Assembly: GCA_002633005.1 (NCBI GenBank)
Contig: NMRA01000006.1
Span: 789,861 to 853,860, forward strand
Direction of reading: 5' to 3'
Length of the DNA: 64,000 nucleotides
Origin: Phoronis australis
Taxonomy: Eukaryota; Animalia; Phoronida
How positions within the stretch are numbered: position 1 is the first letter of the stretch; each line of letters begins with the position of its first letter. A program made the translations under genes and the position numbers. Shown piece after piece: positions 12,547 to 49,650 of this stretch. The notes under the pieces are model-generated. The model was not told where the DNA came from, made no database searches, and saw only the letters and a list, made by a program, of their open reading frames with translations.

Positions 12547-12620
12547 GTCAACTGAAGAAATATTTGCAATCTTTGTTTCAATTGCATTCGTGTATGATGC
12601 AATAAAACACGTCATTTATG
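12547..12620 (+). CDS. SLC4A11: SLC4A11-like exon
   Basis: tgaag|...|gtagtt. Encodes STEEIFAIFVSIAFVYDAIKHVIY (conserved TRSTEEIF). Confidence 0.9.
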
Positions 12621-17516: not shown

Positions 17517-17920
17517 GTAAGTTTGTGGCAAACTCCTTGGTTAAATTTTTTCCATCCAAGTCCTGTATTTTAAGATTTTTTTCATCGTCGGAGAATTAAA
17601 CATGTTACAGGAGGCATTTTCCTTCAGTATAAGTTTAGGATTTATGTAAATTCACTGCAATTTATAGTCATCGAGAAGGAAGACTTAATTTGTAGTAAGT
17701 GATATGTTGTCTCTCTAGACTGCACTCTTGAAGTGCTGACCTCTGCCAAAACATCAGAGATTCCTAAATCAATGCCTCCCCATGTGAAATTAAAAAATTA
17801 ATATAAAAATTGGTCAAGGATTGCTCTGTACGTTCACCATTTGTTGGTGTTGTTGTTGTTATATTGTTGTTCTTATCGTTGTTGTCATGATCATTGTTGC
17901 TGTGATTGTTGTTGTTGTAG

Positions 17921-18094
17921 ACTTGTAAAAGGACCGTCACACAACTGGGACCTGTTTATAGTGGCAATCATCAACTTGGTGTTCTCGCTGCTTGGTCTGC
18001 CCTGGGTACATGGGGCATTACCTCACTCACCCTTTCACATCAAGGCTCTGGCTGATGTACAGGAAAGGGTAGACCTCAGTCACGTCACCCAGAT
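17921..18094 (+). CDS. SLC4A11: SLC4A11-like exon (copy 1 of a probably artefactual duplicate)
   Basis: ttgtag|...|gtgagt. Encodes LVKGPSHNWDLFIVAIINLVFSLLGLPWVHGALPHSPFHIKALADVQERVD. Confidence 0.8.
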
Positions 18095-20245: not shown

Positions 20246-20419
20246 ACTTGTAAAAGGACCGTCACACAACTGGGACCTGTTTATAGTGGCAATCATCAAC
20301 TTGGTGTTCTCGCTGCTTGGTCTGCCCTGGGTACATGGGGCATTACCTCACTCACCCTTTCACATCAAGGCTCTGGCTGATGTACAGGAAAGGGTAGACC
20401 TCAGTCACGTCACCCAGAT
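20246..20419 (+). CDS. SLC4A11: SLC4A11-like exon (identical copy 2)
   Basis: Identical to 17921-18094 within the duplicated block 17784-18386 = 20109-20711. Probably only one copy is real. Confidence 0.75.
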
Positions 20420-20819
20420 GTGAGTTGGTAAATAAGAATGTAATTTTTGTTAAACTCCCTTAGAATTGTGAGTGAATAGTGCCATCATCTAGCAGCCTCC
20501 TCTGCATCTCATTCATTAGTAAGAATTGTTATGAAATTTAACGTGTGAGTTTCCATAAGGTAAATGATGACAGTGTTGATTTTGTCCGTGCTCATACTAC
20601 TTCTATCCTGTTAGTTTAACACTTGGGTGATCTTTATGAAATTTACCGGTCTGTGTTCCATGAAGAAGATAACACGCTTGCAAAAACTAGTCTAGAGATT
20701 GAAGATAAACCTTTCTTTTGCCAATTATGACTCCAAGGCAACCAATATCCACAATTCTACATTTACAATGATCTTTTCTTATGGTGCCTCTTTGTTTACT
20801 TACCAGTATTTGTTTTTAG

Positions 20820-21015
20820 AATTGTGAAAGTGCGTGAGACCCGTGTTCCAAGTTTACTTGCTCACATCTTGATTGGATGTTCCATCTACCTGCTTCCCAC
20901 CCCTCTACAATTCATACCTCGTCCTGTCTTGGATGGACTGTTCATTGCCCTTGGAGTTACTTCCCTTGTTGGCAATCAGTTATTTGAGCGGATTTGTCTC
21001 ATTTTCGTTGAAAGG
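20820..21015 (+). CDS. SLC4A11: SLC4A11-like exon
   Basis: ttttag|...|gtaggt. Encodes IVKVRETRVPSLLAHILIGCSIYLLPTPLQFIPRPVLDGLFIALGVTSLVGNQLFERI. Confidence 0.93.
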
Positions 21016-21900
21016 GTAGGTAGTTCACTTGTTTTTAGAGGTGAGGTTTAGCATAGTTTACCAAACATCCGTGAAGTGTTTTTTGTATTACAAAGTTGGC
21101 CAATTTATAAAATAACGGGCATTATTTTTGATTTAAATAACTGATTTGATAATTTGAAAAATGTTTTTTTTAAGTTGACTTGACATCAAATTTCACATTG
21201 AAGTCATACTGAGGATGTCAATGGGCATGAACACAAATGCAGACATGTGAAAACATTAAATTTATTCTTAAAGAAGAAAATTCTTGTCTTACTTTTTCAC
21301 AACATTGAAAGTTATTTCACCGTTCCAACAACACTGAAATTGCCATGTATTGAAATGCAGGACAGTCATGATCATGTATTTGAGAAGGTCAAGTTTCACA
21401 TTCGTGTGTGATGATGTGTAAGCTATGATTGCCCTATGACCCTATTATTTTTTCTTATTTTGCAATTATTTTGAAGTAGAAAATTAAAGAAAATATTTTA
21501 ACGGTGAACTTTTTGTGTAAAAGATAAAACATCAAAATCATTATTTTTTTCTTACGCCGACGTAACCCGGTAAAACATAGGACAGGAAGGCTATCAATCA
21601 TTAATTTAGGCAGCTATATTAGAAAAAACTAGTTTGGACGCCCCTACTTTGTTTTGTCAGCTATTTTAGCACATGTGACTGTTTCAGTGGTGGCCAGGTG
21701 TATGACCTTTGTTGAAACAATCCCATCTGAAGTTGAAATCTATAAAACCAACTTCATTTACTCAACAATATAAAATCAACATATTTTGTATTGAAACATG
21801 ATCAATGAAGTTGTACCTCAGTGCCACTTTTTGGTGGATTTATGATTCTCATTTTGTGTAGGTGTGACGAAGGTTTCATTTCTGTCTGACTTGTTTGCAG

Positions 21901-23334: not shown

Positions 23335-26178
23335 GACTACACGCATGTATAAAGACATCAGCTGTGTGATGTGGAAATAGTTTTGTCTAATTTATAATAT
23401 GCCAATTGATACTTTGCCAATGCTTGGATGAGCAGCACACTTGTTTAGAATCTCACTGTTGTCCCCATATAACTGTTGATACATGTGAATGAAGTGGATG
23501 TCACATATTTGATGTGTTATTTGAAAAAAGAGAAGCCATAACAATTGAGTTTATTTTACCAAAACTGCTTGAATGCATTATTTTTTTGCTGTGGTCCTTA
23601 AAACTGTAATGATGCATTTTTTGTCAGACACAGTAAAACTCGCATGTCGAATCCAACCATGAAATTTTATTCTAGTAAGGAAAAACATTCAACTTATGTG
23701 AAGGTTCAAGCACAGACTTGAACAACCGTATGACGGAACTGCATGTACATCCGAGTTCAGTGGTTATCTGACCTATCTTTCTTCAACTTATGCAAGTTTT
23801 GCAATATTTTGTCATGTTTTTTTCAAATCAAGTTCGTTTGTCTTTGAATTTGTTATAGGAGTATTGAATGGGTATTGAATGCTGTCTTAGTTGGTCTAAA
23901 ACTACCTCATTCAAAAAATAGAATTCAAATCAGAAAAATTCTAGTCTTGTCATTCAAAAACTTATACTGAAGCACAAATCTGCCAGCTCTTGTTATTTGT
24001 TACTATGCAAATATTAGCCAATCTCTACAAGGGTTGCCGTCAGCAGTAGAATGAGGAGAAATCGTTCATTTTAAAACATGTCTCAGTAAAATGTATTTTC
24101 TGGAAGTAGAATGTCTGTAGAATTGTGAGTTTCGACTTTATAGCAACCAGTAATTAAACTGGTCATGGGTCCATGTGTTTAGCAAAAAAGAACAGAGTAA
24201 AATGAACCGTATTAGTAACACGTCCAAATCTTCTTTGGTATAAATGAACAGAATAAAATCTCAAAAATGATGGTATGGTTTTATAAATATTTTTACACCA
24301 ACTTCATTTTCTCATTAAAACCCCTCAAGCCAAAGTGGAACATTTGAAAAAACAATTCCTATTAGTGTTTTGGAAAATGGTGCATTAAGCATGGTATCTG
24401 AAAGTAACTAAATAGTCCTATCAGCCAGTTACGAGACGTTACGTTTTAAGGGTAGCCAAATTTGTAATTTTCCTAGGGTCCTGCATAACCTTAATAAATA
24501 TAAACAATTTCTAGTCTATTTGTATAGTATTAGTGCAGATATTTGAATAGTATTTGTATTGTTATTTTTATCATGTAAATAAAAGATCTCTAAGTGCCAC
24601 AATCCCTCTATTGTTGTTGCAAGACCAAATGGAGTGCAGTCTTCACTTATTTAGCTCACGATATGGCTTACAAATGAAAATAAATTTTGTCCTATTGCTT
24701 TAGAAAAATAAATATTACGAAAATTTGTCTTTTTCTTGATGCGTTCATTTCTGAACAATTCATCCAAGTTTCCACTAATAGTTGCTAAATAATTAGCCTT
24801 TCAAACACGTCTGTATTTTTGTGCAAAGGTAAATTACCTTGTACAAGTTTATTTCATCTTTTCTCGAGTGATATTGTAAGAACTGTCCTTCAGCTTCTCA
24901 GACAGCTAAAAACCTAAATCCAGGATTTCATTCTAAATGTAAAATATTAACCTGAATATGGAGTTTTTAAATCTTGTGATGGTGCATAAACAAATGACGA
25001 CTACATTTGAACTGAATTTCAAGTTTTTCCCAAATGGTGCTCATTTTACACGTAACGTAATTAAAATGTTTTCAAAATACCCAGACTCACTTCACTCATT
25101 TTTCCAATACGAGTAACTGCAGTTATACCAAGTTTCAGTGCATTGTATGTATGACTGCATCTGAGTATTGCTCAGTTTGTGTGAATAGATTACACATTAA
25201 TCTTTAAATGGGCTCAAGACTCGATCATGATTATACTGATGTGTGCAACTCAACCCCTAGGGCCCTTTGGCATGTTTGCCAGCAGTTACAAAAGGTCAAT
25301 TGCTAAATATACCAGTTGCTAATGGGTTGACCAAGAATGTCACCATTGTTGCATGAGAAACTAACCAGAACCAGCAGGTGTTAGGGGCCTACTGAATCTA
25401 CACACGTCGAAATCAAAAACGATTTGCATCAAGTTTTCACATTTTATTAACTAAAATTGAAAAACTGCAGCTCCACGCAGCAAGAATCCGTCATCACAAA
25501 ATGTTATGCAGAGGACTATGTTATTTCAACAATATAAACACGCAGAACACTTTTATTGTGCATTTTCACTAATATTCTGGCACCTTAACATCCACAAACA
25601 GTAGAAGCCATAGCCACAGATTTTGCAGTGATTCACCTCGGAGGCACCAAGCTTAACAACACAATGGAAGTCAATATGTTGTACAGATCATATCAACAGG
25701 TAGTTCAAATAATAGCATCGGAAAGACAATCGTCAAATAATAAGACCAAGACGTTAGCCACCAACAAGATCAAAACAAACCATGCTAACTAACATCACCA
25801 GGTTTGATGAACTAAAAGCATTAAACATAGGCAGTGCACGTATTAATAAATAATGCATATTTGTATCAGTGCACAGTTATTTGCCAGGTGTAACCCTAAA
25901 TTCGATCCCTAAGTACCAATTTATATATAAGGCATATTTACACACACAATTAGGCATTAAATTATTCATAGTGACTTGCAAGTGGTATCATTAGCAAATA
26001 ATAGGTAGCACAAGTACAAGTGTTGCCCAAAACATGATTAGTCCTGCTACCTCCTGCCAACAATTTGTGACAGACGGACACCTACTCGTCACAGGTAGAA
26101 CCTTTTTCATATCAGCTGAGAACACACCAACCATCAAGAGTCAGTCTCTTGTAATTGAGCACTAGTCGCTGCTGTGCT

Positions 26179-26304
26179 TTATGCAGAACCCAGACTTGGG
26201 AAATCTGCCTCGTCATCGACACGCGGTGCCTGGTCCACTTTACCGCCTCTTTCACCACGGAAACCCCCACGGCCTCGGTTGCCAAATCCACCACCACCAC
26301 CACG
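26179..26304 (-). CDS. SERBP1: SERBP1/HABP4-family last coding exon (5' part lost in the N-gap)
   Basis: Encodes RGGGGGFGNRGRGGFRGERGGKVDQAPRVDDEADFPSLGSA*: an RGG box plus the C-terminal DFPSL motif. Confidence 0.88.
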   Translation of the reverse strand, partial: RGGGGGFGNRGRGGFRGERGGKVDQAPRVDDEADFPSLGSA

Positions 26305-26495
26305 NNNNNNNNNNNNNNNNNNNNNNNNNNNNNNNNNNNNNNNNNNNNNNNNNNNNNNNNNNNNNNNNNNNNNNNNNNNNNNNNNNNNNNNNNNNNNNNN
26401 NNNNNNNNNNNNNNNNNNNNNNNNNNNNNNNNNNNNNNNNNNNNNNNNNNNNNNNNNNNNNNNNNNNNNNNNNNNNNNNNNNNNNNNNNNNNNNN

Positions 26496-27292
26496 AAAAA
26501 AAAAACAGATTTTAAAACAGCAAAAATGGCCACTAGGTGGTGCAAAATAACTCGATTCCACCCCAAAACAGGAAGATAGCGTCATCACACCAATAGATGC
26601 CTATATTTAAAATTTTATGAAAATCTGTTGAGGAACATAAAAAACTAAAATTGCCACTTGGGGGGCACAGCAGTAGTCAGATCCGTCCGAAAGCCGTCAT
26701 CATTTGTAGTCAACATCATATAAATACACTTGCTAAATTAAGTAAAGATCCTGCCAACTATTTAGGAGATACGGCCATAGGCGCAAAAAAAAACTGCCAC
26801 TAGGAGGCGCCACAGTAGTCGAAATCGTCGGAATATCATAGTCAACCGTCCTCTTTATAGTAAGCGCATTCATGCCAATTTTTACAATCATCCTTTGAGC
26901 GGTTTGGTTGTTAGTTGGGTGGACGCAAAAAAACAGACTCGAAAACAGTAAAAATGGCCACTAGGTGTCGCACACTACGTCGAATCCATCCGAAAACAGG
27001 AGGATAGCGTCATTGCACTAATAGGTGCCTACATAACAATTTTCATGAAAATCCATTCAGGACTTTTGGAGATACAGAGGTTAACTAAAAAAAAATAAAA
27101 TTGCCACTAGGGGACACATTGGCAGTCGGATCCGTCCGAAAGTTCGCTCATGCCGTTCCATTCCATTCATTGCCGTTCCATTCATGAATGGAATATATGT
27201 GCCAAATTTCATGAACGTATGTCAAAGGATTTAGTAGATAGAGCAAAGGACGCCGGATGGACGGAGATGACGGCATAATGCGTCCACATATA
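26496..27292 (-). mobile_element. Helentron/DINE-1-like repeat, same family as 11627-12486, with internal GCCACTAGG repeats
   Basis: Its end GGACGGAGATGACGGCATAATGCGTCCACATATAA is near the reverse complement of the start of the 11.6-kb copy. Internal ~140-bp units with (T/G)GCCACTAGG recur. Confidence 0.55.
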
Positions 27293-27394
27293 ACTAGATC
27301 ACAGCGCATGTCAAAGCATCTAACTGTTCCAACACCAGCACACTCACAGTGCTCGGTATAACTAGATCACAGCGCTCAGTATAACGTCACTAAC

Positions 27395-27611
27395 CTCATC
27401 ACAATCCTCTTCCTCTGGGACTTCATCCTGTTTCTTCCCTGGCAGCTGGTAGCCCTTCTTCCACTGTGACGAGTCACAGCCCTCACCAGCCTTGCGCACG
27501 TTGAATGATGCCTTGGGCTTGATACTGGCCTGTTTCTCCTTCCATTCTTGCAGAGTCATCTCCTTGGCTCCCTCCTCCTCTTTGGCCTCCTCTTCGCCTC
27601 CTTCAACTTCA
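27395..27611 (-). CDS. SERBP1: SERBP1-family exon
   Basis: ttacag|...|gttagt. Encodes EVEGGEEEAKEEEGAKEMTLQEWKEKQASIKPKASFNVRKAGEGCDSSQWKKGY, the EMTLDEWK...FNIRKAGEG signature of the HABP4_PAI-RBP1 domain. Confidence 0.93.
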
Positions 27612-27957
27612 CTGTAACATATAACAAGAGTTCTGGCAATAGCAGGGCTTGCTAGACACACTCGAGAAAGGTCTAGGAGGCCTCCTGTAACTGAAAATCA
27701 CATAAACGCCGCTTGAAAATCGACGCATACATTGGGTGTGACTTATTCAGGGTTACATATGAAACTCATACAAAATTAATATCAACCCATTTCCAACCTC
27801 AGCTTAAAAGATCACTTGTGATTTATTTGATTTAAAGCATGTGGTGTTAAATTCAAATTATAATAGTGTCATGGCAAATAGAATATACGTCAAAGTCCAA
27901 GATTCCTATAACAGGCAAGCTAAGCCTACGAGCCTAAATGCATGCACAAGTCATCTC

Positions 27958-28020
27958 TGGATCAGAATCCGGTAAACATCATCAACTGACATTATGATGT
28001 CATTAGTCTTCATCATGTGA
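27958..28020 (-). ncRNA. Candidate intronic box C/D snoRNA
   Basis: Box C ATGATGA (28016-28010), C' TGATGA, 13-nt guide TGTTTACCGGATT and box D CTGA (27965-27962), on the host sense strand. Confidence 0.4.
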
Positions 28021-28072
28021 ACAAGATGACATAGTTAAAGAAATCGTGACCTCCCAAAACTAAGTCACCTAC

Positions 28073-28156
28073 TTGGGATCCTGGTTTTCTGTGTCCTCGT
28101 TCTGTGCCGTCCATTCAGGGTGCTCTTCCAATGTGTTGGTGACATTCTCAGATGCC
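28073..28156 (-). CDS. SERBP1: SERBP1-family exon (acidic linker)
   Basis: ttacag|...|gtaggt. Encodes ASENVTNTLEEHPEWTAQNEDTENQDP. Phase 2-2 fits both neighbours. Confidence 0.82.
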
Positions 28157-29260
28157 CTGTAAGTATCATCACTTTTTATTACCAAACAGCACTCTTACCA
28201 AGTTTAATAATGTAAGAGGGCTTCTCCTCGCCCAGGCACAGGCACATGTCTCCTGAGGTGAGAAAGGGTCTTGAATAGGGTTACTTAAATTGAGAGGATT
28301 TTGTCTCAATCAATTAAATTGTTAACAATTTCAAACGATTTGGACAAGAACTTCAATTTGAACCAAGTTGCATTACTGGACCGGTTATATCAAAGACCAT
28401 ATGCTCATTTCAGAAAGAACGAGTTCAGAGCTGGTGATTGCAATGCAACACTAACATTAAATACAACCTACATTCACACTTCACCCTCATCTTCACGAAG
28501 CAGCAGCAAAAATGATAGACACTGGTCTAAGTTACAAATGGGGCTACGATACAAAAAATTTGTACTTGGTTTCCGTAACATGGTACCCTTAAAAATGCTT
28601 GGCACAATTAGGGTCAAGTTAATTGAAACACTAAATGCACTTGAAAGTTTCTAAAACTCCCTAACATATTTAATGCACTGAAGGTTTCAATTAAAGCTAC
28701 CATCACATTATTTGCCCTAAGCCAGCATTATGCAAAGCAGCCTATTCTCATGCTCCAAAAGAACCTGCATTCATTTATGCAACAGCATGCAATAGTGTAA
28801 GGGTCAAGGTAGACAGCTACGAGGTGCGAACACTTGAATGAACTAGTGGCTGATTCATTCAGTAGCGAATGTACTTCTACTTAATGTCATGAAATATAAG
28901 GTCAACTAACGTTCACTGAAGGCAGCCAACTGAGTTCATACTTCTCCACCTGTGCCAGCCCTGACAGCAACAAGCACGTTATTTTTTAATTTCAGTTCCA
29001 CAACAACCAATAACATTTTCACAGATGGATATGTAAATTGGATTGTGGTATGCCAGTCATTCCAAGTAGAGTGAAACCAACCAATGAAATCAGAAAACGC
29101 ACACCTACATTTTCAGCCAACAGTAAGCCTGGATGACCGATATTCCACGCATTGCTAACTGTAAAAAAGGTTAATGTCCTGGCAATTGAAAGTAAAATAA
29201 TTTTCTAAGCATTAAAGTCATCAGTTTGTGCAAGGAAGTGGATAATCTGATTTCAGTTTC

Positions 29261-29782
29261 AGTGGCTAGGGTATTCTCCATCTAACAGTGGCAAGGGTAT
29301 TATCTATCTAACAGTGGCTAGGGTATTCTCTATCTAACAGTGGCTAGGGTATTCTCTATCTAAAGAGAGGCTAGGGTATTATCTATCTAACAGTGGCTAG
29401 GGTATTCTCTACCTAATCCCATATTAACGTGGCACAAGTGTGGCTAAAAAAGCTCAAAAAGCCAACCGATGTGGTGGTTGTATTTCGTACTAAAAACTGA
29501 ATTACTTATAAATTGATGAAAGCTAATCCGCCCAGGTAGATTGAGGGCTGTTCCAGCCAAATCTGTATGTGAGGGGAGAAGGTACTTTTATTTCGTACNA
29601 ACAGTCGCTAGGGTATTATCTATCTAACAGTGGCAAGGGTATTCTCTATCTAAGAGTGGCTAGGGTATTCTCTATCTAGGAGTGGCTAGGGTATTCTCTA
29701 TCTAACAGTGGCTAGGGTATTCTCTATATAACAGTGGCAAGGGTATTATCTATCTAAGAGTGGCTAGGGTATTCTCTACCTA
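29261..29782. repeat. 26-bp minisatellite (CTAACAGTGGCTAGGGTATTCTCTAT)n in two blocks
   Basis: Blocks at ~29261-29415 and ~29600-29782. The following unique sequence is duplicated (29401-29598 = 29768-29965) around a single N. Confidence 0.9.
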
Positions 29783-30329
29783 ATCCCATATTAACGTGGC
29801 ACAAGTGTGGCTAAAAAAGCTCAAAAAGCCAACCGATGTGGTGGTTGTATTTCGTACTAAAAACTGAATTACTTATAAATTGATGAAAGCTAATCCGCCC
29901 AGGTAGATTGAGGGCTGTTCCAGCCAAATCTGTATGTGAGGGGAGAAGGTACTTTTATTTCGTACCCACTGCTTATATTTTTCATTTATTTCTCCAACCC
30001 ATGACCCATAATTTTTTAATTAATAGGTTAAAATATAAAATCCAACACTTGCAAACAAATTGCCTCCAGGGTGACCTGTTAGGAACTTAGATGATTGCCA
30101 GACAAGATCTAGTTGTGTTGTCCAATATTGTCAAAAACTAAAGTAGCCAAGAGGGTGGTCGAATCAAAACAAAAATGACTTCTGTCAATGCATCCATCCC
30201 TGCTATATATTTTTGTGCCAAATTTCCAGTTGTGCCTAGACCTTTTTGAGAAAATCAACCTGTCTTGTCAAAAACTAACAGGGTGCCACAGTACTTGAAT
30301 CCAGCGTCCAAAAATTGACTGATGCCAGC

Positions 30330-30452
30330 ACATTCTTGCGATATAATTCTATTTCGACTTTCATTGTCAGTGATCAGTGAATCCGAAAATACGCGGAGGG
30401 AATAAAAGAAAAAAGCGGAAATCCGCGTTTCCGCGGAAAATTCCAAGCCTTG
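30330..30452. mobile_element. Partial end of the CAGGGCTTGGAAT MITE family
   Basis: AAAAGCGGAAATCCGCGTTTCCGCGGAAAATTCCAAGCCTTG closely matches 33037-33078. Confidence 0.75.
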
Positions 30453-30454
30453 TA

Positions 30455-30900
30455 ACCCGGAAAATAGACCGGAGAGTATTGGTTCAGTGGTTATACCATA
30501 TGTCTGTGGCACATCGAAGGCATTATGGCGCATCTTTGCGAAAGCCAGTATTAGAACATTCTTCAAACCAGTGAACACTTTATGTCAATTCCAGGTTTTT
30601 CCAGACTCCACGAGTGTACTGGAGAAATCTGTATTGGTCTACCATATCCTGTGTGGTGAATAGACTGTCGGCTAACTTGATACATCCCGATAAAATGCAA
30701 AGATAGAGTATCAAAGTTTTGACATCAGCGTAGGCCTCCACGGCAATGGCTTCTATGAGAGAACAGGGATTGACCAGTAACCAAACACCTGCGGCCAAAA
30801 AAATGTCGACTGGAGTTTCAGGCTGGCGCGGACAACCGGTTTACAAAAGAACACCACCACTGGCAATTAAGGTACAAACTTTTGAAATTCGACCTCCCGT
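30455..30900 (+). mobile_element. Penelope-like element remnant (region leading into the GIY-YIG endonuclease)
   Basis: One frame (30487-30660) reads VVIPYVCGTSKALWRIFAKASIRTFFKPVNTLCQFQVFPDSTSVLEKSVLVYHILCGE*, matching the PLE pattern IPYV.G.SE.L.RI....I...FKP.NTL...KD...KSGVVY.IPC. Confidence 0.75.
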
Positions 30901-31729
30901 CAAAGGAAATGTGCAAATTAGACTCTCCCTTACAAAAGGTTGACTGCAGGCCTGTGATGTGGTACACGACCCCCGTACCGGGGTCACCGGCCCACCAATG
31001 CATTGATGAAAAATATAACTTCAATATGCCGTCAATCGTTGGTGTGACCATGCAAATCTTAGGAGTAAATGATTCAAGAATAGGGGAGAATGACCCTGAC
31101 TAAATCAGACACTAAGATTTTGGCTGCTCCGCTCCGGCCGACTGACTTTCTTTGATGAGCTGTTTCAAATTTCAAAGATTTCAAGAGGTATTAGCTTAAT
31201 AATTGGCAAATGTATCAAGAAATGGTAGAACATTGTATTGAAATTGAAAAAATGAAACAGTAACAGAGCACTCGGCATTCCACGTTATACTCTTGTAATT
31301 GTAGCGAGAGCCGACGATAACATAGTTGCTAGGGTAGTCGATGCGAATATATGGAGCGCTGAATCAACGCGACTTTTCATGGTTTTGCATTTCACATGAT
31401 AACTGAAGAGTTCCATAGCAACTTGAGTACGATTCTAAGATTTGAATACGTTTCGAGTCTACTCGAAAAGCGACATTAAATTTTGCTTTTGCGAGTACGG
31501 CTCCAATGAGCACGATTTCGAGTATGATATCTCGAGTATGAGTGTGAGCCTGAGTACGAAGATTGCATACCGGGGCCCACGGAGTAACAGTTGATGGAGG
31601 TGGGGTGCGGCAAAACATTTCTATAATAAAATACAGTTGCATGCTACCTGCACTAGTTATTCGGTGAAAATTAATTATTTGATAAGAAATAGAATAAAAT
31701 AATTTCACTGACTGCTTCTGTACTAAACA

Positions 31730-32070
31730 TTCGTTACAACACCCGGCAACACTACACAATTGGTTGTCAAGCGATAGAGGCATACATTTCCCATAATGCA
31801 ACTGTGGCGGCAAATTCAAATATGGCGGATTTGCACATTCGCTATTGATTCGAGAGAGGAAACGAGTCCATACAGATAGCAAGATATGAATCCAACATGA
31901 ACAGAGATGGTGGGCGATGTCAACTTCCCCAGATTTACCACCAACTCTTAAATAAAAACAGAAGACTCGTCTATCCAACGACATTGCCACCTGGAGAGTG
32001 ATCAAGATGGCGGGTTACTGATCGGAATATCTCGCAAATGATTTTCACATAAGTCGGGAGTACAGCCTTA
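31730..32070 (-). mobile_element. Possible Kolobok-like DNA transposon end with the start of a THAP domain
   Basis: The minus strand begins TTAA-GGCTGTACTCCC. Downstream MPLSLDNQLCSVAGCCN resembles a THAP N-terminus (C-x-V-x-G-C-x-N). The other end was not found. Confidence 0.35.
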
Positions 32071-32547
32071 ACTTACTTTATTATCACTTTCATTGATATA
32101 TTTCTATGCCAAAAACTGGTCACCTGGATGCAACTGAACTAACTTTATATCATTGGTTTCATATTTTCCGCTTACTTGCTTGTAATTCAGACAGTGTTCA
32201 ATATCAGCGAAGCGACTGCACTTACTTGTAGCAACAAAACATGGAAAACAGATGCACAAAACAATAGCACACTATGGTAGAGTTGCGTAACTCAAGAAAA
32301 ACACGAAGGAAACATCTCACTAAGTTCTGTGTTTCTGTGAAGTTCTCACATCAACGAAATGAACGCCATGTCACTTTTGTGTCCTTAGCTTGGATGATCA
32401 GCTTGACCCAACATAACATTAACAATAAGAGCATCATAGTTTCAGTAAGAATAGCACTAAATTAGCTAGCTACGGTAGTCTTGCTGAGTCTGGGACAAGG
32501 CAGAGCTGGACATGACAAGACACAACAATCTCCTTGGATGTAATAGA

Positions 32548-33078
32548 CAGGGCTTGGAATGACCAATGACAAAAAACGCGGAAACTTTGAAACTTTTACG
32601 GCCCAAGTCATGCCCGATAAACAGTCTTGAAATGGTCAATGTGAAACTTTCCCCGACAAAAATCGGGAGGACTATAAAAAAAAAATAAAATAAAATGAAA
32701 AAAAAAAACGTTACCACCATCAGTAGCATGCGTCTGCGTCCTTTTAGCTCGCCCGTCCACTCCCAACCCACACATTTTTGGCTGCAGGGCGGTAGTATTT
32801 GCCGCCGCACTTAACAATAACACGAGACGCCATTGAAAATCACACCACGCTGTCCCAGATGCCCCGACAATGTTGACAATTTACGTTCCTCCGAAACATA
32901 AAGAGCAACTTCCGCTTTTCGAGGTGAACGTAGTCTGCAACGCTGCGGTAAGAAAGGAATTTGCCGCGGAAATTTTATATCAAATCCGATTTTTTTACGC
33001 GGAAATATTATAAAAAAAGCGGAAAGCACATTTGAAAAAAGCGGAAATCCGCGTTTCCGCGGAAAATTCCAAGCCCTG
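32548..33078. mobile_element. hAT-like MITE with 13-bp TIR and 6-bp TSD
   Basis: CAGGGCTTGGAAT...ATTCCAAGCCCTG flanked by AATAGA on both sides. An inverted, shorter copy lies at 59571-59884. Confidence 0.88.
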
Positions 33079-33256
33079 AATAGAGGAACCACCTATTACT
33101 GGTTCCATTCCTCCACTAACTGGACAAATATTTCATTCACACCACACCCCATTTTCAAAAGGCATCACTAAACTGTAGTTCCTTCCATGGGAGGAGTTCA
33201 AGTTCATCAACCAATCAAAACAGATGTTGTCAAGTAGACAAGGTCACACAACTTAC

Positions 33257-33328
33257 TCAATCTCATCAGTGGGCGTGCCCCAGTTATAAGATCCTCCGCC
33301 ATCTTTCTTGTCAACAGCCTTGACGCCG
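33257..33328 (-). CDS. SERBP1: SERBP1-family 72-nt exon B (GVKAVDKKDGGGSYNWGTPTDEI)
   Basis: ggtag|...|gtaagt, phase 2-2, conserved K..DK..G.G..NWG motif. Confidence 0.9.
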
Positions 33329-33479
33329 CTACCAGCAAAATAATGCATCAGTGTTAGACAGTGAAGTAAGTAAAGGAAGCTGTGCTAAGGACAAGATAAC
33401 AAGTTTCGCTAAGACAGAGTTGAATTCAGGCACATTCATCACTAAACACATGCCATCCCCTGCCTACAACACAACTTAC

Positions 33480-33551
33480 TCTATCTCCCGTTCCTGACTG
33501 CCCCAGTTGTGCGACCCCCCGCCAGACTTTTTCTCCTCTGCCTTGATACCT
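33480..33551 (-). CDS. SERBP1: SERBP1-family 72-nt paralogous exon A (GIKAEEKKSGGGSHNWGSQEREI), candidate mutually exclusive exon
   Basis: atacag|...|gtaagt. Same length and phase as exon B, open frame, same motif. Confidence 0.8.
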
Positions 33552-34656
33552 CTGTATCACAAATAAGTCTCGCATTACACAAGCCACAAATCTGAAGTAA
33601 TGTAGGACAGTTAGGTGACAGATACTGCTACATGTAAACATACCTGCCTAAGACAATCCTCATTTTGTCTAGCACCATTTTAATTGTTGCTAACACTGAC
33701 TGTTGGCAACAAGACAGTTGGGTGCATGTGTCAAAAATTTAACCACACACCATGTACATTCGAGTTAATGCTCCTGACAACATAAGCAACCAACCATAGT
33801 TATGCTCACAGCTTGTTCAGCTGCCTCCTGTACAGTGGAAAGTTCTGATTGACTGCACACAGCTTGGTTAGCGCCCTCCTGTGTTTTACTTAGTCCATCA
33901 TTTTAAAACGTTGAGAAGTCTTCAAATGTGGAAACCAGATCAGTTTTGAGTGACAATTAAAGCTATTGTATTAAGAAAATCGCATTCTGCAAGTGTCTTC
34001 TGCAGTGCATTACAAAGTCTTGTTTTTTGAAAATGACATTGAGACCATAGCCAGGCAAGTCTCTAGATTTCAACTTAATATCCAAGAGGTTTTGCCCATG
34101 TCATCAACCCGAGACTCGTGTAGGATTCTCTTTCTACTTAAGAAAAAACTCAAGACAAGTGTCTATTATTCCATTGGAAAGTATATTATGGTATACATAG
34201 ATAACTGTCTCATCCTATTTTGCATTTGACATCTCCAGTATTAGCTGTAAGTTCTGCGTTTCTAAGTAAATTCTCGAGATTTTACTTAAAATCTCAAGTT
34301 TGTTGCTTGAATCGGGGGTCATCAGGTGCAAAATTGAACTGCACCTAAGTTTAGTAATCCATAACTCACTGAGGTACTGAACAGATAATTATCTTGAGCT
34401 CGAATTTCAGACGCAGGGCCAAGGTAAGCCTTAGAATTTCCAACAAGCATTTCCTCCATTGCCAAATCGGTTAGACATGTACATGTAAGCACCCACTCCT
34501 TAATTTCAGAATAATGAATTAAAGTGACAGGGCATCAACTCAAAAAGTTACAGTAGCTTGTTTATGCATAAGATACAGTGGCCTGACTACAAGTAATTAG
34601 CTTGTTTATGCATAAGATACAGTGGCCTGACTACAAGTAATTAGAGCCATACTCAC

Positions 34657-34776
34657 GTTTTGTTACTGCCACTCCTTCGTTCAAACTCCCGCCTGCCTCC
34701 AAAGCCGCCGCCTCGCCCCCCACGTGCACCACGACCCCGACCCCCTCGACCACTCTCAGGCCGGTCACTCCTATCC
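34657..34776 (-). CDS. SERBP1: SERBP1-family exon (RGG box and REFERRSGS)
   Basis: tttcag|...|gtgagt. Encodes DRSDRPESGRGGRGRGARGGRGGGFGGRREFERRSGSNKT. Confidence 0.92.
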
Positions 34777-35395
34777 CTGAAAACATGTACGCTACATTAC
34801 AAAGATATGCCCACATTGCCAGGACAGCGTTGATGTGTTCTCTTGATAACTAGGCCAATGAAAATAGCTAATTCGGTTCTACTGTGCGTCACTCATTTTG
34901 AAATCTGCACCTCAGTTTAAAGGGAAAAAGCACGCGCCTGCATCAATTAAATTTTTTTTTAAAAACCCTAATGAACCTACTCAAGTGTCTTGGCAACTTA
35001 GCAACCACCTCTAGGTTTCCAAGGCAAGCGCTGTACTTCTCAATCACAGCAAGACCTCATAATGTAGTCAACCGTCTCACCAGACCGTTGAAGCTGGGGG
35101 AAAACACCCTACATCAATTCAGCCAACTTATTGAAAAACATATTAGCAACCAATTTTACCTTTTTTTGCCAAATAGTAGGTTTTCAAAAAACTGTTTAGT
35201 AAAACCAGTGTTCTATCAACTTAAGACCTGACATGCTAACTGAAACTTATCAAAAGCAAATGCACCAAACTCAATGACGGCCTTGGGGTGGTCTCGCCAT
35301 TCTCCAATGTACTGGCCCTCACTGTAATAAAAGGTTGTAGAAATTTAGCCAATGCTTCATATATTAAGTACACATTGGTGAACTACAAGACTCAC

Positions 35396-35519
35396 CTGTC
35401 TTGAAATCCTTGTCTTCTGGGAGGCACCTCGTTGTCACGTGTATCGCGTGAAAAGTTGACATTCCTGTCACCTCGGTCCGACTTGACCTGCGACCTTGGG
35501 CGTGTCTGCGGCCTTGAGT
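35396..35519 (-). CDS. SERBP1: SERBP1-family exon 2
   Basis: ttgtag|...|gtgagt. Encodes SRPQTRPRSQVKSDRGDRNVNFSRDTRDNEVPPRRQGFQDR. Phase 1-2 fits its neighbours. Confidence 0.82.
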
Positions 35520-37921
35520 CTACAATGAGGCCACTTAGTTAGAAAACCTGAATACATTTCAGTAACTGCTGTAATGGTCAAGTGCACCAATTTACGAAAA
35601 AATTTGCTGGACAAGTGACACCCTTGATGCAAACCACAGATTTTAGCAGCTTGAGTTGTCTGACAGCATCAAAATCGCGTCAGATTTTACTGAATATGGA
35701 CGGAATAAGACTTCTTTCACTGAATTAGAGAGATTTTGAGTGGAATTTCTGTCTTTCAGCAGCAGGTACCATAGCTTTAACATCTTAGGTTTTTATTTGC
35801 CAAAATTAATAATTCACCATATTGTGATCACAAATCAATCGAAAATCATTCTGAAGCAGACACACTCAAGTAATTGTCATTTTTGAAAGAGGCGCTGTTC
35901 ATTTTCCACTATCGATCCTTTACATATTTAACATCACGTACGAGGTATCAGTAAAACAAGAGCTGCGGCATATTTCAGCAGAGAAAAATTTCAGTAAACC
36001 TCAGGTCAATTAAACCACAGAATTTCATGTTCACTGAAATGGAATGTTTTCGAAAATGGATAAGCAAGGTCTCAATCTGTTTACAGAACACATTTATCAA
36101 TAAAACTCTTTATGAGGGTTTTGCACCAGTTTTCAGTGCCAGTTTGAAATTGAACACCAAAACGAAATACCAGCATATATTATTTAACTGAAAAGTACTT
36201 GGCAATAAAATCGAAAGCTTTAACTGAAAGTGGGGGTGATTTAATGGAGTCTTGATTTTATTTTAGGGGAATCTTTATTTACATTTACATTATTCAAATA
36301 ATGATTGTCCGTGTAAAACTTAAGCCGTGATGGTTCTGTGGCCAAAGCGGAACCTGACTTCGAGGTCCCTGACGAGTAAGTAGATTTGCAGTTCCGTGGC
36401 CAATACACCAACATAATCACAAGCACTTTACTTCTTTGGCTCACTAGTATTTCTTGACTGGAAGTTTAGTTTCCAACTTTGGATGGGTTATGTTCGTGAT
36501 GTCTAGTAATCAGCTTCCGAGCAACTGGCCGGGATAATGAGTCAGTCCCGCCGGCCGCGACAGGCCTGATTGGGCTCCGAGCCACTGGCCAGCCTGACGA
36601 TAACAATCGTTTTGTGTGTTTAGAACTAAAAAAATTAAGTCTAAACAACACCGATCTAGGTTCTCCAGGCTGTATCTCACGGAAAAATACTTAGAATTTA
36701 TCTCCGAACAGACCCCAAACTCCTGCTACGAACCTTATTAGCTTGCCGAACTTTGTAGGCTACGGTGTGACCAAACACCAATAAATCCGTAACAGCGAAA
36801 TAAAACAACACGTTTTTATAAGAGTTTTACATCGAAGTTTGATGATTAATTGGTGTTAAACGATAAATTCAAGCAATAAGCTGACACCAGTAACCCATGT
36901 TGTGAACTGCTAAACAGACTGCGTGTGAAACCAATTACGTCACTGGACAATTTCAACACCTCCGTCTGCCGTCAGGAAACGCAACCATACGTGCCCTTAT
37001 GGAGTAGAACTACTCGATCTAACTTGATACAAATTAGGTTGTTTTTTGGGTGGCATGCTCCTTTAAGTACTTAAAAACAATGCAGGTAAGTGCGCACTAT
37101 AGAGAAGGTCGATTGCTGCACGCTTTGCTAGCATGTTGGAGTTTTCAAACCAGCGACCTTGACACGTAGCCCATATTTAGACACGCAGGACAAGGTAGTT
37201 AACCCTTGGAACACAAATTTGTTCACATTTTGCAAATCTTACACCTATGATTGTTACAAAGTCTAAATGACGCAGAATACAGTACCAGCTCCTAACCAAA
37301 CCAGAAAATGTCATTTAATGAATAAAGTCAGCAGTATATGCAGAAATGACATCTTATTGTCAATGCCATTTTATTGCTGAATAACTTTACCGCAAGCTGA
37401 TGTCGTAACTTGTGAAAAGATGCCAAAGGTTAACCATCTGACCTAGTTTTTACTTGAATGCCATTTAAAAATGAGAGCAACTCTCGAGCCATGATTTCGC
37501 AAGTGGTATTTTACTGACAAATTTCATTTATTTGGGATTACAAATTCTTGTTTAGCAAACATGAACAGAACAGAGGATAACTATGATATGAGTCAGGTAT
37601 GGTTCGAAACATTTGTGAAGTAGCACATTCCAAATTTCTTTGAAAACCGCCATTAATACAAGAGACAACACACGCGAGTAGCACCGGTTTGTGATTGGTG
37701 CGACCTATTTAGATTTTCAAACTCTCGCTATTTCCGTCGTGGGTACTCTTGTTACGCGCAACGGCATAAAACATTTTTAAGGATATTTTTGAACACAGAA
37801 GATTCGTAACATACCTATTTATAGGCAACATCTAGCTCCTTATTTGGCTGGTTAGAGGCTACGATACTTCCCATCTCAATGAGAGCACGTGATTTTGGTT
37901 ACAATTTTTTAACGCGCGACA

Positions 37922-38560
37922 CAGGGCTCAACACTAACGGTTGCCCGATTGCCCGTGTACATGTAGATTTTGCGTCGGGCAAATGGAATTTGAAAAGTAC
38001 TTGCCCGATGGGCAAGTTAAAAAGCTAGCCTCATAGGCAAGTAGATCCTAAGATTGTCTGCTCGACATTTGCTCCAAAGTAACGAACCCCGACACAAGCC
38101 TAAAAACCGTCGAAAAAGCCCGTGGCCGTCAAAGAAACTCCCGTCTTCGAATGAGCACCGAAAGGAAAATAGAACGAGTATGATGCAGCGTGCACAGATG
38201 ACGCTCGCGGTCAAATCCTTTCGATTCTCTGAACGTGCCCTGCAGTTTCTGAATAAGTTGTCACGTGATACTACTGATCGTCTGCACTCTGGCAAAACGT
38301 CTAAACATGGAAGCCGTCCAGGCCTCGACGGCATTGGTTTAGTTGCTAACAACGAGTCCAGGAAGAATCAAAGCAATAATATGAAACGAAAAGAGTGCGG
38401 GGATGGGTTCCGTCATGGGGAATTAGGTTTTCTGGCCTGCGAGACAGTGAACAAGGGATGACGTTTGATTTTTGCCGGCGTTTACCCATGTACAGCTGGA
38501 AGCACCGCGTTCGTCTGCGGATGTAAGTCATACAGATAAGCGCGAAACCTAAAAAGTGAA
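37922..38560 (+). mobile_element. hAT transposon 5' remnant with a decayed TTF-type zinc finger (ZNF862-like transposase N-terminus)
   Basis: Starts CAGGGCTCAACACTAAC with subterminal TTGCCCG repeats. 38380-38536 reads YETKRVRGWVPSWGIRFSGL...GMTFDFC, then after a frameshift PCTAGSTAFVCGCKSYR. Confidence 0.55.
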
Positions 38561-39587
38561 TGATTGACGACACATTTTTTACACTACACAGCAGTTAAAA
38601 AGGCCTGGTATTTATTCAGGGGAATTCCAAAGGACATTCTTATGAATTCCCGGCTCCCAGTGGCGACTCCCGAAAGAAGAGGAATACGGTCTTCGGGATT
38701 GCCGCTCTGAAGTCTGAAGGGTGACTTTTTCGCGGTCTATTTATTTTTCAAAAATGTAATTATTTATTGAAAATAAAAGTATATGTGGCATTATTATATG
38801 TTAAAATTTGATTTTAATTTAATACAAGGTACCAATGACCAAAACTGTGCAAGATTTTTACGGATAGCAAAAATTGAAATTCAGGTTAGCAACAACTCAA
38901 GTTTAATGCATGAGGGCGTNNNNNNNNNNNNNNNNNNNNNNNNNNNNNNNNNNNNNNNNNNNNNNNNNNNNNNNNNNNNNNNNNNNNNNNNNNNNNNNNN
39001 NNNNNNNNNNNNNNNNNNNNNNNNNAAATTCGAAAACATCTTCTGAAAACGCACAAAAAAGTGTATTAGTAAAATCTACTGATTTTTAAGTGGTTTTAAA
39101 AAACAATCGGTAAACTCACCGATTTTTGTCTCATTACTTTGATACGTGTCTCTTCCGATAAGTTAGTACCTAACGTGCAGACGAGAACTCCAAATTGGAA
39201 CGCTAAGTCCCGCGTGGTTGCGCTGCACGCGAAACAAGATGGCGGACGAACTTTGGAGCCTGACGAAAATAGGTAACCGGACGATATAACACATGGACAT
39301 TGTAAAAAAAATAAAAACGTTGTCTTCTCTACCTACCTACACGTGCGCACGTTTCATTCGATTTTATTTGCTGAATTTTGAAATGAGTAACTTTTTATGG
39401 GGATGTACTATCGCCCCTGTATGCCTGCGGCAGGGCGATGTAATTTCCTAAAATTGTCCTATATAAACCAACTGGGGGTTGGCAAGATGCTCACGAGGAC
39501 CACCATAACATGCAGCGTTGGTAGACTAGCGTTCATGAACAGTCGAGAAGACTTCGTGGAAAGACAGTGAGGTCTAACAATACCTAC

Positions 39588-39825
39588 CTTCCTTTTTCGA
39601 GTTTATCTGTTCTGGTGCTTTGTTTTTATCTTCATTCACACCAGCATTTTTCTTATTCTTCGCCTTTGCAGATTTCGCCTTCTCGTTCTTGCTGTCCTTT
39701 TTTGATTTAGCCTGCTCTTCTTTAAGCGCAGCTTGCTGATTTAAAAATTCATAGGGATCTAAATCCTCATCATCATCAATTAATATGAATCTGTTGTTAA
39801 CCCCTATGCTGTATTCTGTATCCAT
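39588..39825 (-). CDS. SERBP1: SERBP1-family first coding exon
   Basis: Encodes MDTEYSIGVNNRFILIDDDEDLDPYEFL (conserved Y.IGV.NRF...DP.E.L N-terminus). Donor G|gtaggt. Confidence 0.92.
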
Positions 39826-40399
39826 TGTTCCTCAATTAGCGAGGATGTCAATGGATGTCTCGGCCACAGTACTGTGGACTTCCGAACTTGTCAAAAATGG
39901 CGTGTCTCCTCCAGGGCTGTGATAACAAACATAAATCTGTTAATTTTCAAATCCTAAAGAAAAGCTAATATATACTTTTAGCGTTTCTAATAGTGTAAAG
40001 AAGTATTAAAATTGAATTTTCAAACAATGCAACGTTAAATGACAAAAGTCCTACTACTTTCTTTTATTTCATATAACAAAATACTCTCATTTGATCCACG
40101 TTTTTTGTTACCCCTTCCCGCCATTTATTAACTTTAGCAAAAATATATTGCGCGAAAATAAATAAATGGATTATGTTTTGAAAACAAAATTCACTGCTAG
40201 TTTACTACTTTTTATGGAGTATAGAGCTTTATTAAGGTTGTGTCATTCAATGTTGTATGTGAAATCTTACTTTCTGGTACCGCTTCACATTTGACCTTTT
40301 GACCTAGTATTTAAATTATTTCCCACAAGTCATTGCGCGTTAAAGGCGCGGAAATTCGTTTTTGGAGGGAACCAGAAAACTCATCGGCACAAATCAGCA
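39826..40399. promoter_or_regulatory. Bidirectional promoter region between SERBP1 and ZNF367
   Basis: 574 bp between divergent ATGs. YY1-like AAAATGGCG 39894-39902; E2F-like TTCCCGCC 40115, GCGCGAAA 40150 and GGCGCGGAAA 40345; CHR TTTGAA 40177. Confidence 0.65.
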
Positions 40400-40724
40400 A
40401 TGAATCACAGCAACGTATTTTCTTCGCCAGTGCGCATTTCGAAGTTAGAATCAAACATCGTTGACGTTCCATATAGTCCTCCTATCAAAGACAATCGAAT
40501 GCTACCGTGGAACTGGGGAGAAGGAGCGCAAACAATTCAGTTCAGCCCATCAAGTTACAGTGGTTCGGCTGAAGAGAATGCTCGACGGGGACGCCCGAGA
40601 GCCGATTCAATAACTTCACTTATAAAGGAAGGATCTGTATCTCCCTGTGAGATCAAATGTAAAATCTGCAACAGAGTGTTTCCGCGGGAGAAATCTTTGC
40701 AGGCTCATCTGAGAACTCACACAG
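40400..40724 (+). CDS. ZNF367: Zinc finger protein 367, exon 1
   Basis: Encodes PWNWGE, RRGRPRADSITSLIKEG and IKCKICNRVFPREKSLQAHLRTHT, diagnostic of ZNF367. Donor G|gtacgg. Confidence 0.93.
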
Positions 40725-41515
40725 GTACGGAAATACGGTCAATCAGTCTACTTCAGTAGACAAAAATTTAAAAGGACGTTGACACGAAAGTGAACAGTTG
40801 ATTTGCGTCTTCTACCCATCAGCTCAAATGTGCGCGTAAGCCTAATGTATTTCAGAGAAATTACTCCACAGTAATTTTTTGTTGTTTTTTTTTTGATGTG
40901 CACGTGAAAGACTTATTAATGATAGTAATGAAAATTTCACAAGGTCACCCAGTAAGTTTTCTCGGGAAATTACGCGCGCAAAGTTGCGCCATTTTTAAAC
41001 GGACTGGACGATCCACTAAGGAGCTCACTTGGCACTTTGTCATTTATTCCACAATACCATATGATGACTTTTAAACGCAATTGAAATTATAATTATCCTC
41101 AACTATATATATTTCACTCAGCAGTCATGAGTCACTGACTAACGCTGTTTATGTATTCAACTAGAAAATTATATAGATGCAAAGCTTGCACTCTGTTTGG
41201 ACTGGAGCTCCCAGTCCCACAATATTGGAAACTTTTCCATTTCAATGTTAAATGCTTAGAAGTCTTAGGGAAAGGTTATGGAAAAGGCAGTAAAAGTCTG
41301 TCAAAGAATGTCGGTCTTTGAACACATGCAGTTCTCAATTTTTTTCTATTTGCAGAAAATTAAGTTTGCAAGACATTTTCTCTTTTTGCTCTCTCTTCTA
41401 GAAGGTCTAGCTGAGTAACCCATGACTGTAAAGTTGATAGGTCTGTGTCATGTATGTGGGAAATTAGACTCATAATGAAATTTAGAGCAAGCAAACTATG
41501 CTAAATTGTATTTAA

Positions 41516-41839
<324 letters not shown>

Positions 41840-48908: not shown

Positions 48909-49650
48909 CTAACAAGAACACCAAAACCTTCGGGCTGGGGTTGACTAAACCTAACTTTACATGCGCCCACAATTTCAGGTTTGGCCAACTCTCTTGACTT
49001 GCTGGTGGTTTCAGTGATCTTGGAATCGCTACCGAAATCGAATCCTATCACGGTGAAGACTGTTATGAGACCCATTCACGCGCTTCTTTGTTCTTTTTTT
49101 GGCAACTAAATATTGACGAAACGGAAGATTTGTTCGCAATTTTCTTCGTTGAACCCTCCTTTTAAAAATCTCCAAATATTATCAATTTGAATGTCCTCGA
49201 CTGCATATTCTAGGACGTAGTTTATCGCAATTTTGATACACCTTATATAAGTTCTTGTTCTTCAGAACTTTAGCTTTGTCTCCTAGTGTTTGAGGTTTTA
49301 TTGCAATCAATGGATATTGGCAGTGAGAAACTAAGTTCTGTTACGAATGACATACGAAGAGGCACATACACTGCTACTGATATAAAAAAATGCGCTCGAG
49401 CGCCTTTTCGTCTTAATTTTTATAAAACATTTAAGACTCGCTATTATCAGATTCTAAGCATTTACATTGTACGCCTAAAATGCGCACAATATTCAGGACG
49501 AAAGTTATTAACTCAGCCATTTGTAATTTGGCCTACGAATCTGTTTTCAAATGAGGACTCTTAACACACTCCATTTTCGGAGTAAAGATTTCCATAGAAA
49601 CCATGCATAAAATTCCATGACCAAGTGACAAAGCGTGACGTTGACTGAAG

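What the first reader, a model, noticed from the sequence alone, without database searches (positions are those of the whole stretch)
33257..33551. Tandem duplicated 72-nt exons give two versions of the conserved ribosome-binding segment of SERBP1
Seen: exon A (33480-33551) encodes GIKAEEKKSGGGSHNWGSQEREI and exon B (33257-33328) encodes GVKAVDKKDGGGSYNWGTPTDEI. Both are exactly 72 nt, phase 2-2, stop-free, with AG acceptors and the same GA|gtaagttgtg donor context, and they are 151 nt apart. They have diverged heavily at the nucleotide level but keep G-x-K-A-x-[DE]-K-K-x-GGGS-x-NWG...EI, which implies selection on both. Known: SERBP1/Vig2/Stm1 proteins normally carry this motif once, directly after R-E-F-[DE]-R-x-S-G-S, in the part that occupies the 40S mRNA channel and helps hold eEF2 on dormant 80S ribosomes. 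Inference: mutually exclusive splicing could give two ribosome-hibernation isoforms from one gene (for example egg versus soma, or stress), a role other lineages may split across paralogues (SERBP1/HABP4, Vig/Vig2). Neither exon appears in frame in the ORF track.
Basis: partly seen in the sequence, partly recalled or inferred. Interest (0 to 1): 0.75.

Follow-up and report, generated by a model that had tools for sequence, protein, structure and literature searches.

The report
Silent twin exon in SERBP1 gene
An invertebrate gene for the ribosome-storage protein SERBP1 carries two old side-by-side copies of its ribosome-binding exon, but the RNA samples examined splice in only the second copy, so the first, which sits just behind a predicted small nucleolar RNA, is likely a rarely used alternative or a recently silenced spare.

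Summary
Exons A and B are both 72 nt, phase 2-2, and match the same Pfam PF04774 segment. They diverged under protein-level constraint (pS 0.75, pN 0.27), and a model with A neutral since duplication fits poorly. RNA does not show the switch. In three raw RNA runs (18-19% of each read) U>B has 117/130/18 reads and B>D 183/262/30; no junction at either end of A and no A>B junction is listed. A is therefore at most about 1-2% included in the two deeper runs, and a constitutive repeat is excluded. Reads over A are unspliced. They start at a predicted H/ACA snoRNA (33727-33598) and run through A to B's branch point, like a 3'-extended snoRNA from the intron that skips A. The same 24-residue module is skipped in octopus, horseshoe crab, bee and ant models and doubled in one tubeworm model. 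Best reading: B is the default exon and A a rare, likely stage- or tissue-restricted mutually exclusive alternative (0.6). Main rival: a recently silenced duplicate (0.28). The egg or stress role is untested.

The parts
39588..39825 (-). First coding exon of the SERBP1/HABP4-family gene (ATG at 39825)
   Evidence: Pfam IHABP4_N E 2.1e-8, below the curated cut-off; joined to exon 2 in RNA loose ends
35396..35519 (-). Exon 2
   Evidence: RNA depth and joint to exon U in 123/99/16 reads
34657..34776 (-). Exon U, ending in the REFERRSGS motif; phase-2 donor
   Evidence: U>B joint
33598..33727 (-). Predicted intronic box H/ACA snoRNA: two hairpins with pockets, H box at 33670-33665, ACA at 33603-33601
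   Evidence: Full-length but weak Rfam matches, SNORA19 21.2 bits (gathering 80, E 1.7) and snoU109; fold z -2.95, 1 of 200 shuffles as good; sense RNA begins at this 5' end
33334..33727 (-). Unspliced sense RNA covering the snoRNA, exon A and the A-B intron; inferred to be a 3'-extended snoRNA from the excised U-B intron
   Evidence: Depth 14>62>2 in X2 and 7>46>0.2 in X3, 0 in X4 and X1; no joints or loose ends within it
33480..33551 (-). Exon A: intact duplicate, not seen spliced
33505..33518 (-). Part of exon A predicted to pair (14 bp, 3 G-U) with the intron just after B's donor
   Evidence: found post hoc
33329..33479 (-). 151-nt A-B intron; branch-point-like CTAAC at 33357-33353, about 125 nt from A's donor
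   Evidence: sequence
33257..33328 (-). Exon B: the copy spliced in all samples examined
   Evidence: U>B 117/130/18 and B>D 183/262/30 reads; X1 contig runs U-B-D
33240..33253 (-). Positions +4..+17 of B's donor, predicted partner of exon A
   Evidence: best of 6298 intronic 15-mers between U and D
28073..28156 (-). Exon D
   Evidence: B>D loose-end consensus equals the start of D
27395..27611 (-). Exon E, C-terminal part of the PF04774 domain
   Evidence: Pfam E 1.7e-6

Best explanation
The gene splices exon B by default and skips exon A in the samples examined; A is an old duplicate kept under protein-level selection and is likely a rare, stage- or tissue-restricted mutually exclusive alternative that would swap about 9 of 23 residues of the ribosome-binding segment. 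Shown: both exons are intact and in frame, B is used alone, A is removed with the U-B intron, and an unspliced RNA runs from a predicted H/ACA snoRNA through A. Inferred: that A is still included somewhere; that snoRNP assembly 46 nt upstream of A's acceptor helps keep A off, by analogy with SNORD2-EIF4A2; and that a predicted 14-bp helix between A and B's donor could mask B when A is chosen. Untested: any difference in ribosome or eEF2 binding, and any egg or stress role.
For: pS 0.75 against pN 0.27, Fisher p 8e-4. With A neutral since duplication, the observed codon-position pattern arose in at most 23 of 4000 simulations at any of six divergences, against up to 628 of 4000 with A constrained. 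The eight near-invariant residues survive neutral drift in 14.6% of runs at d 0.1, 2.5% at d 0.2 and 0.5% at d 0.3 (the NWG columns are invariant by my selection of segments). Flanking introns show no homology beyond the donor: 141, 58 and 66 of 300 shuffles score as well, so the duplication is old. A keeps AG, a consensus GTAAGT donor and its length, and has family-typical residues such as I2, E6, H14 and S18. The module is a separable unit elsewhere: it is missing exactly in 5 and doubled in 1 of 229 proteins. Human tandem duplicated exon substitutions are mostly tissue-specific, 57 of 81 (PMC9741552, passages).
Against: No junction at either end of A is listed in X2, X3, X4 or X1; inclusion is at most about 1.7/1.5% by U>A and 1.1/0.8% by A>D in X2/X3. 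A is a poor family member: only 6 of 103 leave-one-out segments score below it, against 40 for B, and S9, Q19, E20 and R21 occur in 1, 1, 1 and 0 of 103. No pair of near-identical proteins with a swapped segment was found: the largest difference was 2 residues in 171 pairs among 179 proteins (run before the last cluster look-up). No steric or frame-based block on A>B exists, and a docking/selector scan was not significant.
Confidence: 0.6

Rival explanations
1. A was once a used alternative but has recently been silenced; it is now an intact-looking pseudo-exon that is discarded with the snoRNA-bearing intron.
For: No A junctions in four data sets. A has drifted at positions 9 and 19-21 and scores in the lowest 6% of the family. 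Up to about 0.1-0.15 neutral substitutions per site would still leave the core intact in 6-15% of cases.
Against: The window for looking this intact is short compared with saturated synonymous divergence. The three raw runs come from one study, tissues are coded, and only 18-19% of each run was read.
Confidence: 0.28
2. A is now kept mainly as an RNA element: its body pairs with B's donor (or tunes snoRNA release) and so promotes skipping of B, giving a U-D form that lacks the ribosome-binding segment, as in other animals.
For: B's donor +4..+18 is the best partner of exon A among 6298 intronic windows (-22.4 kcal/mol), and exon A is the best partner of B's donor in the pre-mRNA (-19.9, next -16.2). 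23 of 1000 synonymous recodings of A pair as well. Exact skip forms exist in Octopus vulgaris, Tachypleus tridentatus, Heterotrigona itama and Odontomachus brunneus models.
Against: The helix was found post hoc after several structure scans; an unrelated site scores -21.9. Part of the match comes from His-Asn-Trp codons and the donor consensus. There is no covariation data. U>D reads were not seen, but 103 loose-end rows were hidden, so this path is undetermined. The codon pattern points to protein-level selection.
Confidence: 0.1
3. A and B are always included together as an internal repeat.
For: U-A-B-D is in frame. The Ridgeia piscesae model KAK2191517.1 has two copies in a row, though that is a gene prediction.
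Against: No A>B joint in any run, and U joins B directly.
Confidence: 0.02

Closest known systems
SERBP1 / HABP4 / Vig2 / Stm1 family (Pfam PF04774, PF16174; PDB 6MTE, 4V6X, 4V6W, 7OYA)
   Same: The gene is a family member. Both exons align to the segment found in ribosome-bound chains, for example residues 21-43 of the 55-residue 6MTE chain. The family binds the mRNA entry channel together with eEF2 (bioRxiv 10.1101/2021.11.03.467131 and PMC7392345, passages).
   Different: 223 of 229 protein models carry the segment once. Here the genome holds two alternative copies. Vertebrates put the egg role on the paralogue Habp4.
Tandem duplicated, mutually exclusive exons (tandem exon duplication substitutions; PMC9741552)
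   Same: Adjacent homologous exons of equal length and phase, old, under purifying selection, never seen together.
   Different: Only one copy is seen spliced. There is no steric, frame/NMD or significant docking-selector control. SERBP1 and HABP4 do not occur in that paper's main text (supplement not read).
SNORD2-EIF4A2 cis regulation (PMC10324135, passages)
   Same: An intronic snoRNA lies just upstream of a skipped exon, and a 3'-extended snoRNA RNA accumulates in a sample-dependent way (80 and 62 unspliced reads in X2 and X3, 0 in X4 where 7-12 were expected).
   Different: Here the RNA is of the H/ACA type and only predicted. No significant snoRNA-branch-point duplex was found (fold z -0.83), and no regulation is shown.
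Ridgeia piscesae NP493_49g09075 (KAK2191517.1)
   Same: Two tandem copies of the same 24-residue module in an annelid gene model.
   Different: Its more deviant copy is second, not first. Within-species identity (16 and 14 of 23) is about the same as cross-species identity (12-15), so the duplications may be independent. Its DNA could not be fetched, so two separate exons are inferred only.

Membership tests
SERBP1/HABP4 family | HABP4_PAI-RBP1 domain (PF04774) and N-terminal IHABP4_N region | tested here: met
   exons A, B and E above the cut-off; exon 1 E 2.1e-8 but under the cut-off
SERBP1/HABP4 family | Binds the 40S mRNA channel with eEF2 | not testable with these tools
   inferred from alignment to PDB chains and paper passages
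Tandem duplicated mutually exclusive exons | Adjacent homologous exons of the same phase and length | tested here: met
Tandem duplicated mutually exclusive exons | The two exons are not joined to each other | tested here: met
   no A>B joint; weak support, since A is not spliced at all in these data
Tandem duplicated mutually exclusive exons | Each exon is included in some transcripts | tested here: inconclusive
   B yes; A not detected in 4 data sets, at most about 1-2% in the two deepest; tissues and stages unknown
Tandem duplicated mutually exclusive exons | Purifying selection on both copies | tested here: met
   shown for most of A's history, present-day selection not shown
Tandem duplicated mutually exclusive exons | Pair conserved in related genomes | tested here: inconclusive
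   no related genome available; one doubled annelid model, no swapped isoform pairs
Tandem duplicated mutually exclusive exons | Exclusion mechanism (steric, frame/NMD, docking-selector) | tested here: not met
   branch point about 125 nt from A's donor; all paths in frame; 12 selector/docking pairings, best 5 of 60 shuffles. A non-classical exon A-donor B helix is a lead
Box H/ACA snoRNA | Hairpin-hinge-hairpin-tail with ANANNA H box and ACA three bases from the end | tested here: met
Box H/ACA snoRNA | Expressed from the intron with a defined 5' end | tested here: inconclusive
   sense RNA starts in the bin below 33726; a mature 3' end is not resolved
Box H/ACA snoRNA | Pocket complementarity to rRNA or snRNA | not tested
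SNORA19 (RF00413) | Reaches the Rfam gathering score | tested here: not met
   21.2 bits against 80; pocket sequences differ

The most novel reading that the evidence does not exclude
One invertebrate gene makes both a general SERBP1-type and a Habp4-like (egg or dormancy) ribosome-plugging isoform, and the choice is coupled to processing of the H/ACA snoRNA just upstream of exon A and to an exon A-donor B helix. A scores better than B against the zebrafish chain 7OYA Zgc:103482 (19.5 against 13.1 bits; that this chain is Habp4 is my inference), though this rests on a few residues.
Probability: 0.1. Interest if true: 0.72.

Novelty: new member of a known kind. Interest (0 to 1): 0.4.

Why it matters
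If A is used, it gives a natural 9-residue swap in the segment that plugs dormant ribosomes, and so a direct way to test which residues tune ribosome and eEF2 storage. Apart from A, the comparison shows that this module is a 24-residue cassette with conserved borders across protostomes, so forms lacking the ribosome-binding segment may be a general control of SERBP1. If A is dead, this is an ordinary decaying duplicate beside an intronic snoRNA. Practical lesson: read depth over A here comes from an unspliced intronic RNA and must not be counted as exon inclusion.

Tried and rejected
No whole genome is held, so paralogues and relatives could not be searched. Two single-exon homologue searches gave no significant hits. 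The run search listed no holder on record as RNA; three raw RNA runs came by species label. Related-locus searches failed with exon B (too short) and with alignment A1. The one metagenome scan, with P0172, stopped at 18 of 64 parts and returned one locus that covers only the exon E homologue. A candidate 56-nt ATG-bearing exon at 33699-33644 was rejected: no joint or loose end there, and it lies inside the snoRNA fold. A second snoRNA in the A-B intron or after B was rejected: fold z -0.43 and 0.27, no Rfam match. A duplication unit including the snoRNA was rejected: flanks do not align. A helix between A's donor and the A-B intron was not significant, 39 of 500 shuffles. The wider Rfam scan (25000-41000) did not list the snoRNA at E up to 10, so the Rfam match alone is weak. 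The tree (quick method; the careful search did not finish) leaves the gene unplaced, outside the supported mollusc clade and the arthropod groups. No structure or complex prediction was run, because a short disordered segment on a ribosome is outside those tools. Earlier-findings look-ups by sequence, words and place returned nothing for this locus.

Full report
Observation. The minus strand holds a SERBP1/HABP4-family gene (exon 1 from 39825; Pfam hits). Between exon U (34776-34657) and exon D (from 28156) lie two 72-nt, phase 2-2, stop-free exons, A (33551-33480) and B (33328-33257), 151 nt apart, 45 of 72 nt identical, each with AG before and gtaagttgtg after. Each alone passes the PF04774 cut-off at profile positions 15-36 and aligns to human SERBP1 209-231, Vig2 51-73 and the short ribosome-bound chain of 6MTE. 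All four possible paths are in frame.

RNA. Four data sets of the same species label were laid: one contig set (X1, RNA by guess) and three raw RNA-seq runs from one study (X2-X4, 18-19% of each read). On the narrow stretch, where no rows were hidden, loose ends occur only at B: U>B 117, 130 and 18 reads, B>D 183, 262 and 30, and an X1 contig running U-B-D. No joint or loose end is listed at either border of A, and no A>B joint (threshold 3 reads from 2 start places). Allowing 2 unseen reads, A inclusion is at most 1.7 and 1.5% (U>A) or 1.1 and 0.8% (A>D) in X2 and X3; X4 gives only a loose bound of 6-10%. A constitutive repeat is thus excluded and B is the default. The U>D skip is undetermined, because 103 loose-end rows were hidden. 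The tissues are coded, so stage-restricted use of A is not excluded.

What covers A. X2 and X3 have sense-strand, unspliced reads from about 33725 down to about 33335, peaking at 62 and 46-fold near 33600; X4 and X1 have none. The start coincides with a 130-nt element (33727-33598) that Rfam matches weakly but end to end to two H/ACA families (SNORA19 21.2 bits against gathering 80, E 1.7; not listed in the wider scan). It folds as hairpin, H box, hairpin, ACA with z -2.95. The reads fade at B's branch-point-like CTAAC (33357-33353). I infer an intronic H/ACA snoRNA and its 3'-extended form, cut from the U-B intron that contains A. It is not SNORA19 itself, and its target was not tested. The pattern resembles SNORD2 in EIF4A2, where an extended snoRNA accumulates by cell type and correlates with skipping of the next exon (PMC10324135, passages). 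No significant pairing of this snoRNA with A's acceptor region was found (z -0.83).

Is A alive? A and B differ at 15 of 23 third positions but 11 of 46 first and second positions; pS is 0.75 and pN 0.27 (Fisher p 8e-4), while the flanks no longer align. Simulations with A neutral since duplication gave this pattern in at most 23 of 4000 runs, and in 0 of 4000 with the core residues also kept; with A constrained, up to 628 and 27 of 4000. Neutral drift of 0.1, 0.15 and 0.2 leaves the eight core residues in 14.6, 5.9 and 2.5% of runs. So A was constrained for most of its history, but a recent loss is possible. Against A: only 6 of 103 distinct family segments score lower (40 for B), and R21 occurs in none. 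Weighing the short window for an intact-looking dead exon against the missing junctions and the drift, I put a rare live alternative at 0.6 and recent silencing at 0.28. These figures are judgement, not computed.

Other animals. Of 399 stored proteins, 229 had both flanking motifs and 250 or more residues: 223 carry the module once, 5 lack it and 1 has it twice. These include alleles and isoforms, so they are not independent, and protein models cannot reveal an unannotated second exon. The five are Octopus vulgaris CAI9727239.1, Tachypleus tridentatus XP_076308915.1 and XP_076308923.1 (exact 24-residue deletions), Heterotrigona itama CAD1468223.1 and Odontomachus brunneus XP_032679182.1. The double is Ridgeia piscesae KAK2191517.1, probably a predictor chaining two exons, which I could not check. 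No swapped-segment isoform pair was found among 171 near-identical pairs. The exon borders are therefore old and the module is a cassette elsewhere, but conservation of this particular pair is not shown. The tree does not place the organism.

Mechanism. Steric exclusion is unlikely (branch point about 125 nt from A's donor), frame-based control is absent, and a docking/selector scan was not significant. One lead: part of exon A (33518-33505) can pair with positions +4 to +17 of B's donor; this is the best of 6298 intronic windows and the reciprocal best, and 23 of 1000 synonymous recodings match it. It was found post hoc, an unrelated site is nearly as strong, and there is no covariation, so it is a hypothesis. 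Proposed working model (inferred): B is chosen by default while snoRNP assembly next to A's acceptor disfavours A; in some state A is recognised and masks B's donor.

What is known. The family occupies the mRNA entry channel with eEF2 on dormant ribosomes, and Habp4 does so in fish and frog eggs (bioRxiv 10.1101/2021.11.03.467131, passages; PMC7392345, passages; PMC11063288, passages, which notes the SERBP1-eEF2 interface is small). I found no paper on duplicated or mutually exclusive exons of SERBP1 itself: searches (20 papers, 17 listed, judged by title and abstract start; 0 papers), for a snoRNA host role (13 papers, 8 listed), and the main text of PMC9741552. The library lacks most subscription papers, and no supplements were read; exon lists in them could bear on this. 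Unchecked notes from this scan report many other mutually exclusive exon sets in this genome, which makes one more less surprising and is not evidence for A.

Verdict. A real, old duplicate exon pair; one copy is used and the other is silent in the data at hand, next to a predicted snoRNA. New member of a known kind; interest 0.4.

Noticed in passing
window 33598-33727 (-): Predicted intronic H/ACA snoRNA without a confident Rfam family; a 3'-extended RNA is present in two of three raw runs.
   Followed up: partly
window about 40640-41830 (+): A C2H2 zinc-finger gene lies head to head with the SERBP1 gene, about 0.8 kb from its ATG. Its likeness to ZNF367 is recalled, not tested; human ZNF367 and HABP4 are neighbours at 9q22 (PMC8251932, passage).
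   Followed up: partly
proteins P0277, P0307, P0310, P0382, P0387: Isoform models in octopus, horseshoe crab, stingless bee and ant lack exactly the 24-residue ribosome-associated module.
   Followed up: partly
proteins P0284, P0287, P0292, P0311, P0161, P0167: One-residue or short insertions recur at both borders of this exon in mollusc, amphioxus and nemertean isoforms, suggesting alternative splice sites at the same introns.
   Followed up: no
protein P0172 (Ridgeia piscesae): Gene model with two tandem copies of the module.
   Followed up: partly
window 33426: All RNA reads (10 of 10, 8 of 8) differ from the assembly at this A-B intron position; probably an allele.
   Followed up: no
window 29208-29965: 26-nt minisatellite with a duplicated block of about 367 nt around a single N; possibly an assembly overlap.
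   Followed up: no
window 26305-26495: An N gap hides part of the gene's 3' coding region just before the last exon.
   Followed up: no
window 700-4900 (-): Non-LTR retrotransposon with endonuclease and reverse transcriptase matches, fragmented.
   Followed up: no
window about 6900-21050 (+), 49645-50370 (+), 52181-52801 (-): Bicarbonate-transporter (SLC4-type) gene with an apparently duplicated stretch near 17800 and 20130; an HSF-domain ORF; a FAM110 C-terminal ORF.
   Followed up: no
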